DNA of 64,000 nt from Octopus vulgaris (Eukaryota), in NCBI GenBank assembly GCA_951406725.2, contig OX597818.1:19840001-19904000 (forward strand), given 5' to 3'. The position numbers and the translations under genes were made by a program. How positions within the stretch are numbered: position 1 is the stretch's first letter; every line of letters starts with the position of its first letter. The notes under the pieces were generated by a model. That model was not told where the DNA came from and ran no database searches. It saw only the letters and a program-made list of their open reading frames with translations. Below, piece by piece: positions 10,488 to 57,211 of this stretch.

Positions 10488-10506
10488 TCAAAATATTTGA
10501 TGGTAC
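10488..10506 (-). CDS. Candidate terminal coding exon of membrane protein B (..K-YHQIF*); alternative acceptor at 10541 gives ..N-YYLSHGM*
   Basis: attattttag acceptor in phase 2 after exon 10702-10729. The competing acceptor tactttctgtttgtag makes the choice ambiguous. Confidence 0.35.
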
Positions 10507-10701
10507 CTAAAATAATTCACATCCCATGTGACAAGTAATAACTACAAACAGAAAGTACATTCAATCACTGAACATCTTCTCGTATCTTAATTCAATTGAT
10601 TTTACTAGATAAGTCTATACCAGTTTTCTATCATAGTACTTCTACAAACTTTCAGGGTATTAAAAGATGGTAACAAAAATTAATAAATTTTCAGGACTTA
10701 C

Positions 10702-10729
10702 TTGGGTGTCTCGCTTGCAGGAGTGATTA
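10702..10729 (-). CDS. Small cytoplasmic-tail exon of membrane protein B (VITPASETP)
   Basis: Long poly-T tract + ccag acceptor, gtaagt donor, open in phase 1. Confidence 0.7.
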
Positions 10730-11854
10730 CTGGAAAAAAAAAAAAAAAAAAAAAACATTATTGGGTATATCTTTTAAAATCAAAACATTTAGAAAAATCC
10801 ACTTGATAGTTTAATGGTGACTTTGGAGATGGATTTCTAAAGACTATACTTTGCTTCAAATTAAAATCGAAGAAACTCTATTAATGAAGGGAATGAAAGA
10901 TTCAGGAATTCCTTCTGTTAAAAGAATGAGGAGAATTTCAAAAACTAAGGATAAAAATTATGCTCTAAATCCCCTTCCTTCCCTTCCTCCTCCTCCTCCT
11001 CCTCCTTATCATCATCATCATCATCTTTTTTTTTAACATCCATTTTTGTATACTCACATGGGTTGAACAGGATATTTTGAAGCAATGGCTTACAGCCATA
11101 TGCCCTTCTCAATGCTAACCCTTTGAGTTAACTCTTATAAGCAGAAGGTATACAGTGTAACTTTTCTAACAATCAGAATATACACAATATGAATAGCATT
11201 ATTGCAAATACGACTATAATTACAAAATGCAACATGCTGTCTCAAGCTTTCTTTTGAATTTTTTTATATTCCTGTGGAATGTAGATCTAGGATTCAAAAT
11301 CAAAAAGAGTGAGATGAGCCCCATACCACATCCAGGTATTGACTATTTATTCTAATATGCAGCAATCATTATCTTTATTAAGGTACAAAATATTAAATCT
11401 GTAACCTTATTCAAAATAAATTGGACACAGAATTTCAAATGAGCAATCCTTGCTGGTATTTTTAATTTAATATTTAATTACTGAGTTATTCTTAACTTTG
11501 AAGATAATTTTCCTCCCAGTGACTATAGATTAGATATGTTTTTGATGGATTAAATACTTTTATAGATAATCATTTGAGATGGAATGATCAAGAAATTGTT
11601 TTGTGCAGAGTGTGTTGGATTAATTTAAACCACACTAAACACTTTTCCCAACTTTTGCTCCTCAGATCATTCACCCGCCTGGAATCTCTTCCTCACTCAC
11701 ATATTTCTGAAAACACCATCCTACAGTGCTCAAGTTAGCCACACCAGTCTCACACACCTGGATGGAGGACTAGTTACAAGTCATAGCTATGGCCACTGAT
11801 TAATTTATAAAAATGAAAAGTAAAATAATTTATAAATCAAAGAGAATACATTAC

Positions 11855-11887
11855 CTATTCTTGGAATAATTTTCTGAGATTTTAATT
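11855..11887 (-). CDS. 33-nt phase-1/phase-1 cytoplasmic exon of membrane protein B (ELKSQKIIPRI)
   Basis: ttttttcttatag acceptor, gtaatg donor, in frame with the TM exon. Confidence 0.65.
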
Positions 11888-12119
11888 CTATAAGAAAAAA
11901 AAATTTTAATATTTTATATCAAATATGAAATCATTTCACTTTTTTTAAAACCAAAAATACATATTTTACACATATCAAATTGTCTTATTTATTTTGCATC
12001 AATATTATAATACTTAGGACTCAGCAAGTGATTTTCCTATTCCCAACAACATAGTTGAATGTACCTTTGGTACTGTTGTGGATATATTAACTAAAAATGA
12101 GGATGTCTCAACATTTGTG

Positions 12120-53801: not shown

Positions 53802-53886
53802 TATATATATATATATCTATATATATATATATATATATACATATGTAAGAAATTCACAATGCATATTAGATTCTTCCTGCTACTTT

Positions 53887-54005
53887 TTAATTCTTGAATA
53901 TGATTAGAGCAATTATGATTCCCAGGAGAAGGTTTGTGCATGGTCTGAATATGTAAAACCCTGAGTCAGTATCATCATCAGTTTTTACTCCTGGTGAAGC
54001 AGCAC
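53887..54005 (-). CDS. Terminal exon of Ig-like protein A encoding a GPI-signal-like tail (C-AASPGVKTDDDTDSGFYIFRPCTNLLLGIIIALIIFKN*)
   Basis: atctttgcag acceptor, phase 1 matches the upstream exon; small-residue omega-like DSG, spacer, terminal hydrophobic stretch, TAA. Confidence 0.75.
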
Positions 54006-55887
54006 CTGCAAAGATAATCAATATAATACATAACTTAGTATTTATTAAAAATAAGTATATTTGTGTAATTTAAGAGGTTCCAATTAGCCAAATGAGTTTT
54101 ATTTAGTCTGAAGAAACGTACTGTTTATAAAATTTTTACTTCTGGACTCAGGAATAGGGTTAATTGGATGAAGTTATAGATTAATTTGGATCTTTGGATA
54201 CAATCATGTTGACTCAGTTTAGTGACTGAGTGGAAAATACAGAAATGTGGAGTTTCATGTTGTTGAATTTATGGGAGAAATGATTGGGCAATGTGTTGAG
54301 AATAGTGTTTAGATATAAAATGAATGGTTTATTTAAGTGTAGCTTTTCGACTACAAGTTATAATGAACAGGTGTTGTTGTAGTGATATTAGAAGTCCTAT
54401 GGTAGAAGCCTATTAGAAGATGATTTTGGTAGACTAATGAGGTTGAGGGATATGAAAAAGTATCATGGTAAGGAGCAATGATAGAGTAGAGTCAGTAGGT
54501 GGTCACAAGGTAGAGGTTTGCAGTATAGATTATGGTAGACTACAGCGGGTACATGGTTAATGAGTAGAGGGTAGTGAAAAGTATCATGGCTAGCTATGGT
54601 AGATTACACTTGATAGATAGCAAATGAAATAGAGGGATGTAGAAAGTTATGGTCTATAGGAAATGGCTGGTATAAACAAATTACCATAACAGAAGAGTGT
54701 ATATCTAGGATAATATTATCTAATATCACCCTTCATTTTTAAGATGTCAGGATGTGATAGGAGGTATTTCTAATCAGTGATTACACTGGTGCTTCTTTGC
54801 TGGCTCTAAAAGTATATTATAGAGAACTAAGTGATATTTAAGCCAATTAACTTTCTTATTGTAGATGGAGCATAGTAATTACTTCTACTACCATTCAAAG
54901 TTTCTATTCACAACTGCTCATGGAAACATAAATCTGCTCTAGATTCCATATTTAATTGCCAATGGTACAAGTATCACTTCTACTATTTTAATTCTTGTCA
55001 TATCTAAAGCACCTTACTACATATGTTTCAATGACCATGATGTACATTGCTGTCCTATATGCACAAAAAGATGACAAATGTCTTTTTTCTTATCTCCTAA
55101 CATACATAAATCATTCCAAAGGTTAGGGTTAGGGTTAGGTTAGGGTTCCTTAATATTTGGAGAGTTATTAAGCCTTATTATTTAGAGAGTAACAATTTCA
55201 TAATATAAAGAGAGTAGCAACGGTGGTGAACTGGCAGAATCATTAGCATGCCAGGCAAAATGTTTAACAGCATTTTGTCTGTCTTTACATATTGAGTTCA
55301 AATGCTGCTATGGTCAACTTTGCCTTTCATTCTCTCAGGGTTGGCAAAATAAGAACCAGCTGAGTACTGGGCGCGATGTAATTGATTCACCCCTGCCCAA
55401 AAATTACTGGCCTTGTGCCAAAATGTGAAACCAATATAAAGAGACTAGTAGATCTTTAATATTTACAGAATAACAGAGTTCCATAATATTTTGAGAGTAA
55501 TATATATTTGATATTTGAAGAGTAACAGATCCTTAATATTTGAGAACTAACAGCTCCTTAATATACAGAGAGTATTAGACCCTTAATTTTTAGAGAGTAA
55601 CAGATCCTTACAAGTATTTAAATGAGATCGCAGATCATTTTAATATGATTCTTTTAAGGAAGATTTAATAGTGTTTATAGCAGTAGACATAAAAGCACAT
55701 TATGAGTGACACTAATATCAGGATCATCCAATTTACAATAAATATATTAATTATGAAATAACACACAAAATATATTTTAAGGAAGTTGAGAATGATACAA
55801 AAAGTTTACAGTCAATATATTTAAGCATTAAAAAATTAAACACAATTTTCAATATAATTTATAAACATTATGAAAATACTCCCTTAC

Positions 55888-56050
55888 ATTGAAAGTCTAT
55901 AAATCGTTTCTCCTTGAATAAATCTTTCATAGTGAAAATACATTCCACTTTTCCAGTAGCTGAAGAACTAACATTTAGTATAACATCATTGGTGACAGTT
56001 TTCCCATCAGGACATGTATTTCTTTGGATTGCAATAAATTCAGTAGGAAT
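55888..56050 (-). CDS. Exon of protein A, second half of Ig-like domain (IPTEFIAIQRNTCPDGKTVTNDVILNVSSSATGKVECIFTMKDLFKEKRFIDFQ)
   Basis: Strong pyrimidine tract + cag, gtaagg donor, 163 nt phase 0 to 1, open; beta-strand pattern with G-x-V-x-C. Confidence 0.8.
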
Positions 56051-57110
56051 CTGAGAGGAAAAAAAGAAAAGCTAGAGAGAGAGAGAGAGAGAGAGAGAGA
56101 AAGAGAGACAGAGACAGAGAGAGAGAGAGATGGTTAGAGAGAACGAGAGAGAAGATAATTAAAAAGCATCAGGAAGTACACTTTTATTCTCTCACATTCA
56201 TTTCTCTATTCATTTCTAATTAAATTTCTTGACTTATTAACATAATTATTTGATACAATATTATTAGGATACTCTAACAAGTAACCAGAACTAACTATGG
56301 CACATGAAAGACCTACATGGATGACTTACTTGATATTATGAATAAGTTCTTCGCTGATATAGTATAAGAGAAGTTGATAGAACAAGCATTGAACACAGTT
56401 CTAAATATACAACACTTTTATTCCAGAAACCATCTTCTGCAACTAAGTGTTATCACACAAAATTTGTTGACTTTGTCAAAGTATATCTTTCATTAACTAA
56501 AAGGACTTGGAGATATTCTGAAATTTGAGTTTGACATTTTAGTTTTATTCCACTATACTGAAAAACATGACACAAATCAAGGAAACACACACAACATCCT
56601 TACCATTCCTAAACAACACACAATTAAGCTTTTGCACATTCTCTATGAATTTTAGGTTATACTGTCTCTTAGAACCTCTCATTGTAGTTTCTACAAATAC
56701 CAGATAACCAAGACTGCATCACTAAAACTGTTTCCTTTTAAGGATCAAAAATATTGGAGTAGAAATAAAAAATTCTAAAACTTATATAAGGCTCAAGTCC
56801 TAGAGAAATACAGATGGAATTATAGATGTTATTACACCCAAAGACTGCAATCCAATATGATTACAATAGTTAAAAAGGAATCCAGAATCAAAAACAATGA
56901 TTGTGTAGTAAAGTAGTAGCTAGACAAGTGACCACATAGTCCATCAGTTCAAATTTTACTGAAGTCCTTGTGCTGTGCTCCTGACCAAGGCACATAATTA
57001 TGCTTGTTCCAAATTGTTTGTCTAATATAAATATTCCACTCCTTACCCCAAAGTTGAGTAGGTTAATGGTACAAAGATAAACACAGATAAAAAGAATTCT
57101 GTTTACTTAC

Positions 57111-57211
57111 CTTTCTAATGTAACATTCTATACGTGTCGCAGGTAAAGAACATTGTGCTGTTACATTGTATATACAATTTCTTATTACCTTGATCTCCAA
57201 CTTTGGTTTCA
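57111..57211 (-). CDS. Exon of protein A, first half of Ig-like domain (KPKLEIKVIRNCIYNVTAQCSLPATRIECYIRK)
   Basis: attttacag acceptor, gtaagt donor, 101 nt phase 1 to 0; V-x-P-x-L start and P-A-x-x-I pattern of C2-type Ig domains. Confidence 0.8.

What the first reader, a model, noticed from the sequence alone, without database searches (positions are those of the whole stretch)
10488..57211. Hidden divergent Ig-like receptor locus that may switch between GPI-anchored and transmembrane isoforms
Seen: three phase-consistent minus-strand exons (57111-57211, 55888-56050, 53887-54005) give a Cys-rich Ig-like domain followed by a GPI-signal-like C-terminus. 39 kb downstream on the same strand is a clean stalk+TM exon (16633-16812) plus short tail exons. 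The Ig exon ends in phase 1 (T) and the TM exon starts in phase 1 (CT), so skipping the GPI exon gives an open fusion ..RFIDFQ-S-EHTTVTYVETT..TM..tail. Known: NCAM, Fasciclin II and CD58 make GPI and TM forms by alternative terminal exons. Inference: this is one lineage-specific surface-receptor gene, or two adjacent ones, that I cannot assign to a named family.
Basis: partly seen in the sequence, partly recalled or inferred. Interest (0 to 1): 0.75.

Follow-up and report, generated by a model that had tools for sequence, protein, structure and literature searches.

The report
Two octopus membrane genes, not one
The exons are real but belong to two neighbouring octopus genes rather than one switching gene: one encodes a predicted antibody-fold surface protein, likely lipid-anchored, from a large unnamed family, and the other a tiny membrane protein carrying a docking motif that would likely recruit the phosphatase calcineurin.

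Summary
The exons are real; the isoform switch is not supported. In RNA contigs the Ig exon joins the GPI-type exon (directly in 1 of 4 runs, consistent in 2 more). The TM exon, present in 2 of 4 runs, is joined both times to a 67-nt exon at 21086-21152 that supplies its own ATG behind two in-frame stops. Database records of three Octopus species also hold two genes. Gene A (253 aa): signal peptide, V-type Ig domain (exon just beyond the window), C-type Ig domain, GPI-like tail. The Ig fold rests on a predicted model. Its V exon has 80 matches in the genome, 69 on one contig; TM-anchored versions are separate paralogues. Gene B (113 aa): no signal peptide, one TM helix, and a conserved tail with PRIVIT, an exact calcineurin-docking core; it looks like a transmembrane adaptor (inferred). 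A rare fusion transcript is not excluded, since contigs drop rare variants.

The parts
57111..57211 (-). Gene A, first half of the C-type Ig domain (D2); phase 1 to phase 0. Upstream exons lie beyond the window: V-type domain D1 at 64026-64274, signal-peptide exons near 72174-72215 and 75072-75111
   Evidence: residues 127-160 of P0001
55888..56050 (-). Gene A, second half of D2; ends in phase 1, giving the first base of the Cys215 codon
   Evidence: covered with 0 differences by one contig each in X1, X2, X3
53887..54005 (-). Gene A, last coding exon: Cys215, short spacer, GPI-signal-like hydrophobic end, stop
   Evidence: X3 contig 18 joins 55886-56050 to 53881-54003; hydropathy
21086..21152 (-). 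Gene B start exon: 5' leader with two in-frame stops, then ATG at 21089-21087 and a GTGAGT donor. Its 5' limit is the nearest AG; what lies further upstream in the transcript was not located
   Evidence: loose ends of X1 and X3 contigs map to 21087 onward; candidate found first from sequence
16633..16812 (-). Gene B: Thr-rich 25-residue outer part, TM helix, basic juxtamembrane stretch
11855..11887 (-). Gene B tail exon 1 (first half of the PRIVIT motif)
   Evidence: downstream loose end of X1 and X3 contigs
10702..10729 (-). Gene B tail exon 2 (second half of the PRIVIT motif)
   Evidence: window model equals P0003 letter for letter
9206..9265 (-).
7903..7939 (-). Gene B last coding exon with three Tyr and the stop; the 3' UTR likely runs on to at least about 7371
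   Evidence: the length of the X1 contig fits an end in the microsatellite at 7235-7397, inferred
10488..10506 (-).
   Evidence: absent from P0003, P0004, P0005; weakest acceptor of 10; no RNA was laid on it

Best explanation
The interval holds the 3' end of one octopus gene and most of a second on the same strand: gene A encodes a predicted two-Ig-domain surface protein that is likely GPI-anchored, and gene B, with its own start codon, encodes a 113-residue single-pass membrane protein that likely acts as a calcineurin-docking adaptor. Shown: splicing of the Ig exon to the GPI-type exon, splicing of the TM exon to its own ATG exon, and a family of V-domain exons across the genome. Predicted: V+C Ig fold. 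Inferred for gene A: the signal peptide routes it to the ER, the C-terminal signal is swapped for GPI, and the outer V domain binds a partner on another cell or particle (adhesion or recognition); the family gets TM-anchored forms from other paralogues, not from this locus. Inferred for gene B: it inserts N-out/C-in without a signal peptide, may be palmitoylated at Cys46, and its tail recruits calcineurin through PRIVIT (70-75) and perhaps phosphotyrosine readers through Tyr97/103/105/112. My odds: two genes 0.9; GPI anchor on A 0.7; calcineurin binding by B 0.6; B signalling for A specifically 0.1.
For: RNA: X3 contig bridges Ig exon to GPI-type exon; X1 and X2 contigs run two bases further, to 55886, so the next letters are GT as in that exon and not CT as in the TM exon; bin depth 2.34, 1.03, 1.50 equals one contig per run; TM exon joined to the 21086-21152 exon in 2 of 2 runs that hold it. 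Two in-frame stops precede gene B's ATG, and the Ig exon joined to that start exon would read TAA. Separate records in O. vulgaris, O. sinensis and O. bimaculoides; the O. bimaculoides N-terminus MKMA matches IKMA of the start exon. Different conservation against O. bimaculoides: gene A 141 of 213 aligned residues, gene B 102 of 113. All 7 family anchor exons aligned begin GT after a shared acceptor context, and gene B's TM exon does not align with them there. The fusion would turn Cys215, present in 9 of 10 aligned database proteins, into Ser. Fold: D1 pLDDT 91-96, D2 54-84; best matches V+C ectodomains (B7-H6, PD-L1, butyrophilin, nectin-3, CD200R; Z 11-12, rmsd 4-6 over 164-181 residues) and single C domains for D2 (Z 11.3, rmsd 2.2, 87 residues). 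PRIVIT is kept in all three species, arises in 0.3% of 20,000 shuffled tails, and is the V2R variant that enhanced calcineurin binding, with a favourable hydrophobic residue at -1 (PMC6728138 passages).
Against: Contigs drop rare variants, depths are low (3-35), and only 5 runs were laid in all, tissue unknown. The E3 piece itself is listed only for X3; for X1 and X2 the junction is inferred. The 93-160 nt of the gene B contigs upstream of 21152 were not placed, so a shared non-coding 5' exon is not excluded. The Cys argument is not absolute: an O. sinensis isoform of the sister paralogue (P0015) uses a CT-starting last exon and loses that Cys, and the C4 paralogue has Arg there. Gene A reaches no Pfam cut-off; only 7 of 57 D1 exons match Ig_3 at E<=0.1. 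No GPI or signal-peptide predictor was available. Gene B has no homologue above any cut-off, so the adaptor reading rests on anatomy and one motif. The database gene models are predictions and may share RNA evidence with the runs laid.
Confidence: 0.82

Rival explanations
1. One gene with alternative last exons: the V+C ectodomain is spliced either to the GPI-type exon or, 39 kb further, to the TM exon, as in CD58 or NCAM; gene B's start exon would then be an internal promoter making an ectodomain-less form.
For: The junction is in frame; same strand, with only retrotransposon matches among the long ORFs scanned between the two; A and B orthologues share a contig in all three species; a sister paralogue does use an alternative CT-starting last exon (P0015).
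Against: No contig with this junction in the runs laid; both exons sit in separate unbranched contigs in X1 and X3; no database isoform joins them; the TM exon is unlike the family's anchor exons; Cys215 would be lost.
Confidence: 0.06
2. Two genes that work as a pair: gene B is the signalling subunit of the tail-less gene A receptor in lipid rafts, which is why they stay neighbours.
For: Both are present in the same two runs (X1, X3); neighbours in this genome and on one contig in two other species; A has no cytoplasmic tail, B has almost no ectodomain.
Against: Neighbourhood over a short evolutionary span is expected by chance; B is single-copy and far more conserved than A, which fits a general role; the sister GPI-type paralogue lies 114 Mb away.
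Confidence: 0.1
3. Gene A is not GPI-anchored: its hydrophobic end is a minimal TM anchor, or the protein is secreted.
For: In O. vulgaris the uncharged run is 16 residues, near TM length; the best omega candidate (Asp228) is not conserved in the O. bimaculoides orthologue.
Against: Only 2 residues follow the run; in the O. bimaculoides orthologue the run is 9 residues, broken by Asp-Asn, too short for a TM helix; small residues lie 24-28 from the end in all GPI-type relatives.
Confidence: 0.25

Closest known systems
CD58 (LFA-3), and NCAM / Fasciclin II: GPI and TM isoforms from one gene
   Same: Gene A has the outline of a two-Ig-domain protein with a GPI-type end; CD58 has a GPI and a type I TM form (PMC8218816 passages). 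That CD2-family V domains lack the B-F disulfide, as D1 does here, is recalled, not checked.
   Different: Here the TM exon belongs to another gene; no sequence similarity to CD58 was shown; GPI and TM forms of this family are different paralogues.
V+C ectodomains of the B7/butyrophilin, nectin, CD200R and Neph/SYG-1 groups
   Same: Top fold matches of the gene A model, Z 11-12 over both domains; Foldseek E about 1e-8 to antibody light chains and BTN3A1.
   Different: Identity 7-14%; rows are tied, so no single family is picked out; D1 lacks the canonical disulfide and has a CxxxC pair instead; D2 is split over two exons and has six Cys.
Transmembrane adaptor proteins (LAT, NTAL, PAG, LIME, SIT; features recalled)
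   Same: Gene B: no signal peptide, short outer part, one TM helix, Cys at its inner end, Tyr-bearing tail; LIME1 cluster appears at 0.88 in the Atlas feature search, a lead only.
   Different: No homology shown; one juxtamembrane Cys and not a CxxC pair; tail of 65 residues with only one YxxPhi; carries a PxIxIT site.
Calcineurin PxIxIT-docking proteins (NFAT, AKAP79, viral A238L)
   Same: Exact PxIxIT core PRIVIT with Ile at -1, both favourable in PMC6728138 (passages).
   Different: Only the motif is shared; binding is untested; no LxVP site was looked for.
Uncharacterised Octopus records LOC118763661 / LOC106876057 / CAI9722445 (gene A) and LOC115212351 / LOC106876068 / CAI9722444 (gene B)
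   Same: These are the genes: window exons reproduce P0003 exactly and P0001 exon by exon.
   Different: The records carry no fold, family or function; the O. vulgaris model P0005 adds a 116-residue C-terminus from a stretch 10 kb beyond the window start that the other two species lack.

Membership tests
Genes with a GPI/TM switch by alternative last exons (CD58, NCAM, FasII type) | The same ectodomain exons are spliced to both anchor exons | tested here: not met
   Ig exon to GPI-type exon; TM exon to its own start exon in 2 of 2 runs holding it. Contigs cannot exclude a rare form
Genes with a GPI/TM switch by alternative last exons (CD58, NCAM, FasII type) | The TM exon depends on the upstream gene for start codon and signal peptide | tested here: not met
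   own ATG at 21089 behind two in-frame stops
Genes with a GPI/TM switch by alternative last exons (CD58, NCAM, FasII type) | Both isoforms recorded for one locus | tested here: not met
   separate loci in 3 of 3 species
Immunoglobulin superfamily (gene A) | Ig beta-sandwich fold in each domain | tested here: met
   predicted model, D1 pLDDT 91-96 and D2 54-84; V-type and C-type matches at Z 10-11, rmsd 2-2.5 per domain
Immunoglobulin superfamily (gene A) | Canonical B-F strand disulfide in D1 | tested here: not met
   D1 has only Cys77 and Cys81; Leu54 and Phe111 are the conserved core positions, Trp68 is kept. Loss of this bond is known in some V domains (recalled)
Immunoglobulin superfamily (gene A) | Canonical B-F strand disulfide in D2 | tested here: inconclusive
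Immunoglobulin superfamily (gene A) | Pfam Ig profile above the curated cut-off | tested here: inconclusive
   gene A none; paralogue P0007 passes I-set, 30.5 against 23.7 bits; 7 of 57 D1 exons match Ig_3 weakly
A named IgSF subfamily (CD2/SLAM, B7/butyrophilin, nectin, CEACAM) | Sequence or structural match standing clear of other IgSF groups | tested here: inconclusive
   top fold rows tied within 1 Z unit; no PDB sequence match at E<0.09
GPI-anchored proteins (gene A) | C-terminal hydrophobic stretch with no cytoplasmic tail and small residues 20-30 from the end | tested here: met
   simple rule-based check, not a trained predictor
GPI-anchored proteins (gene A) | Cleavage at omega and GPI attachment | not testable with these tools
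   needs PI-PLC release or mass spectrometry
Transmembrane adaptor proteins (gene B) | No signal peptide, short outer part, one TM helix, basic inner face | tested here: met
Transmembrane adaptor proteins (gene B) | Palmitoylation motif and several phosphotyrosine motifs | tested here: inconclusive
   single Cys46 at the inner end; 4 tail Tyr, 1 YxxPhi
Transmembrane adaptor proteins (gene B) | Homology to a named adaptor family | tested here: inconclusive
   no Pfam family above cut-off; Atlas hits are mixed small single-pass families
Calcineurin PxIxIT ligands (gene B) | PxIxIT core in a cytoplasmic tail, conserved | tested here: met
   PRIVIT 70-75 in P0003, P0004, P0005
Calcineurin PxIxIT ligands (gene B) | Binding to calcineurin A | not tested
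   no octopus calcineurin chain was at hand; needs a binding assay

The most novel reading that the evidence does not exclude
Octopuses have evolved their own receptor-plus-adaptor module: a GPI-anchored member of a large, undescribed Ig family with disulfide-less V domains signals through the neighbouring raft adaptor, which docks calcineurin, convergent on vertebrate GPI receptors and LAT/PAG-type adaptors. (A rare Ig-to-TM fusion transcript, probability about 0.06, is the other reading not excluded.)
Probability: 0.1. Interest if true: 0.7.

Novelty: new member of a known kind. Interest (0 to 1): 0.3.

Why it matters
The switch that earned the first score is not there, and both genes are already in databases as uncharacterised models, so the finding as posed is ordinary. 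Two side results have value. Gene A is an entry point to an octopus Ig family of at least 80 V-type exons that Pfam mostly misses and that my literature searches did not find described; such families are candidates for cell recognition or immunity. Gene B is a single-copy, well-conserved small membrane protein with a near-ideal calcineurin docking site, which gives a cheap, direct test of a membrane-anchored calcineurin adaptor in a mollusc.

Tried and rejected
No RNA holder was listed as such (kinds are guesses); the spliced contigs show cDNA. X2 and X16 had no contig on the TM exon and X5 no listed piece on the Ig exon: no evidence either way. First structure model from an 8-row alignment was poor (mean pLDDT 49) and was not searched. 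Alignments A2, A4, A7, A8 put D2 half-exons in the wrong place and were not used for folding. Profile searches of the PDB gave nothing significant. The search of 1.84 billion representatives never ran, so the family's range beyond Octopus is open; the Atlas gave unnamed mollusc clusters at 0.92-0.93 and Ig families at 0.89-0.90 as leads. A scan for an extra Ig exon between 16812 and 53887, by tblastn and by splice signals, found none. Considered and rejected: gene B as a split-off anchor exon of the Ig family (its exon does not resemble the family's anchor exons); the 67-nt exon as a bridge from the Ig exon (gives TAA at the junction); its open signal-peptide-like second frame as the true coding frame (it stops at a TGA just inside the TM exon). 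No complex prediction was sent: neighbourhood alone did not justify it. Literature searches found no paper on these genes or this family; only listings were seen, plus passages of PMC13428168, and supplementary gene tables of octopus transcriptome papers were not read and may list these loci. Look-ups of earlier notes near the window, by P0001, by P0007 and by words were empty.
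Full report
Setting. The window is G000:C5:19840001-19904000. Proteins identical to its exons are named Octopus vulgaris by their sources and lie on a contig of the same length.

Observation. E2 ends with T; with E3 the codon is TGT (Cys), with the TM exon TCT (Ser). So the proposed fusion is possible on paper. The phase match is weak evidence: 56 of 60 fetched family V exons are phase 1-1 (four rows dropped for a missing splice site, a stop or degeneracy).

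RNA test, Ig side. Four runs of four studies were laid on 53000-64000. X3 contig 18 carries 55886-56050 followed at once by 53881-54003 with no differences: E2 is spliced to E3. The X1 and X2 contigs match E2 through 55886, so the next two letters are GT, as in E3 and not CT as in the TM exon; they go on for 111 and 114 letters, about the length of E3. The E3 piece is not listed for them (the table is cut), so this is inferred. Depth in the E2 bin (2.34, 1.03, 1.50) is what one contig per run gives (7.47, 3.3, 4.8 times 115/367), so no second contig covers E2. X5 showed no listed E2 piece.

RNA test, TM side. Four runs were laid on 16590-16876. X1 (1097 nt, depth 34.9) and X3 (375 nt, depth 8.9) hold the TM exon; X2 and X16 do not. 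In both, the upstream loose end is the same 30 letters, which map once in the window, at 21087: the end of a 67-nt exon (21086-21152) that I had picked beforehand from the O. bimaculoides N-terminus. This exon ends ATG G, GTGAGT and has TAA TAG in frame upstream. The downstream loose end is the 11855-11887 exon. The 93-160 letters further upstream were not placed. X1 and X3 therefore express both genes in separate contigs. Contigs drop rare variants, so a minor fusion is not excluded.

Database records. E2 finds one protein cluster (P0001, 253 aa; P0002) and the TM exon two others (P0003, P0005; P0004). No record holds both. The six gene B exons of the window translate to P0003 letter for letter. 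The 690 downstream letters of the X1 contig would end near 7371, inside the microsatellite at 7235-7397, which fits this structure (inferred).

Gene A. Upstream exons lie beyond the window: D1 at 64026-64274 and signal-peptide exons near 72.2 and 75.1 kb. A model from a 71-row alignment has pLDDT 91-96 for D1 and 54-84 for D2. Fold searches return only Ig folds: V+C ectodomains at Z 11-12 (B7-H6, PD-L1, butyrophilins, CD200R, nectins), C domains for residues 126-216 (Z 11.3, rmsd 2.2, 87 residues), V domains for 36-126 (Z 10.4-10.6). Rows are tied, so no named subfamily is indicated. D1 keeps the C-strand Trp but has no B-F cysteines; a CxxxC pair is conserved instead. D2 has six cysteines; Cys215, made by the E2/E3 split codon, is present in 9 of 10 aligned database proteins (these are isoforms and orthologues of three genes, not ten independent cases). 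The C-terminus has a 16-residue uncharged run followed by two residues, with small residues 25-28 from the end; in the O. bimaculoides orthologue the run is 9 residues. This reads as a GPI signal, by rule of thumb only.

The family. A paralogue query gave 86 matches among 102 candidates in G000; 80 are D1-type, 69 of them on C29 (a lower bound). D2-bearing paralogues lie on C5 (134.3 Mb), C28, C4 and C2. The C5 one ends in a GPI-type exon; the C28, C4 and C2 ones are followed by candidate TM exons (from sequence only). All 7 anchor exons aligned begin with GT after a shared acceptor context, and gene B's TM exon does not fit that pattern. In a tree of 57 D1 exons the two GPI-type C5 genes form one branch (100/96) inside a 95/92 branch with the D2-bearing TM-type genes (82 columns, midpoint root). 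So this family obtains GPI and TM forms by gene duplication. Against the strength of the Cys argument: a recorded O. sinensis isoform of the C5 paralogue (P0015) uses a CT-starting last exon and has no anchor, and the C4 paralogue has Arg at that codon.

Gene B. 113 residues: 25 outside (Thr-rich, acidic end), TM 26-48, then RK and a 65-residue tail; no signal peptide. Charges point to N-out/C-in (established positive-inside rule). It is single-copy (2 significant matches of 19 candidates, both its own exons) and better conserved than gene A against O. bimaculoides: 102 of 113 against 141 of 213. No Pfam family reaches its cut-off; Atlas hits are assorted small single-pass proteins. The tail holds PRIVIT at 70-75, built across two microexons and kept in all three species; a strict PxIxIT arose in 0.3% of 20,000 shuffles (the motif was noticed first and tested after). 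PMC6728138 (passages) reports that V2R in PVIVIT enhanced calcineurin binding and that a hydrophobic residue at -1 increased inhibition; gene B has both. With Cys46 at the inner end of the helix and four tail tyrosines, it resembles vertebrate transmembrane adaptors in outline (features recalled; no homology shown).

Comparison with known systems. CD58 has GPI and TM forms (PMC8218816 passages); NCAM likewise (abstract starts). This locus fails the defining test for that group. Gene A works like a V+C IgSF adhesion or recognition protein but is not assignable to a named subfamily. Gene B works like a membrane adaptor with a calcineurin site, untested.

Novelty. Both genes are already annotated as uncharacterised. 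Six literature searches found no description of the genes or the family; the library lacks most subscription papers and supplements were not read. Unchecked notes from this scan describe other octopus Ig clusters; sequence look-ups did not tie them to this family. The range outside Octopus is open.

Verdict. Real exons, two genes, no switch: new members of known kinds, interest 0.3. The family and the calcineurin-docking protein are worth a separate look.

Noticed in passing
L094:1773, 3503, 6322 (G000:C28, 3.917-3.921 Mb): The C28 paralogue has three tandem candidate TM exons after its D2 exons, all starting GT and ending in phase 1: serial (three-pass) or alternative anchors. A better candidate for anchor choice than this window. 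The C4 paralogue has two (L102:5714, 6415).
   Followed up: partly
G000:C29, clusters near 0.33, 7.2-7.6, 16.5, 18.2-18.6, 19.6-20.5, 22.4-23.4 and 27.4 Mb: 69 D1-type exon matches, mostly intact; a related O. sinensis gene has at least 16 recorded isoforms differing in the number of tandem V domains before a TM helix (P0007, P0013, P0014).
   Followed up: partly
L091:7642 onward (G000:C5, 134.31 Mb): Alternative last exon of the sister GPI-type paralogue, matching O. sinensis isoform P0015, which would give an anchorless form.
   Followed up: partly
about 124300 in window coordinates (L008), + strand: A copy of gene A's signal-peptide exon on the opposite strand with its donor changed from GT to AT; no D1 exon follows within 90 kb. 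Likely a remnant of a duplication or rearrangement.
   Followed up: partly
window 26908-30087, - strand: Open frame of 1059 codons with endonuclease and reverse transcriptase domains: a young non-LTR retrotransposon between the two genes; further fragments at 35.8-38.0 and 57.3-59.8 kb.
   Followed up: partly
window 21086-21152, - strand: A second frame of gene B's start exon is open and hydrophobic, like the end of a signal peptide, and stops at a TGA just after the main ATG: possible overlapping upstream ORF, or chance.
   Followed up: partly
about 10.1-10.5 kb before the window start (L018), - strand: The O. vulgaris model P0005 appends 116 residues from this stretch to gene B; absent from the other two species and probably a modelling artefact from a mobile element (not tested).
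   Followed up: no
window 44375-45108, 52269-52876, 14910-15540: Tandem arrays with periods of about 73, 61/122 and 156 bases.
   Followed up: no
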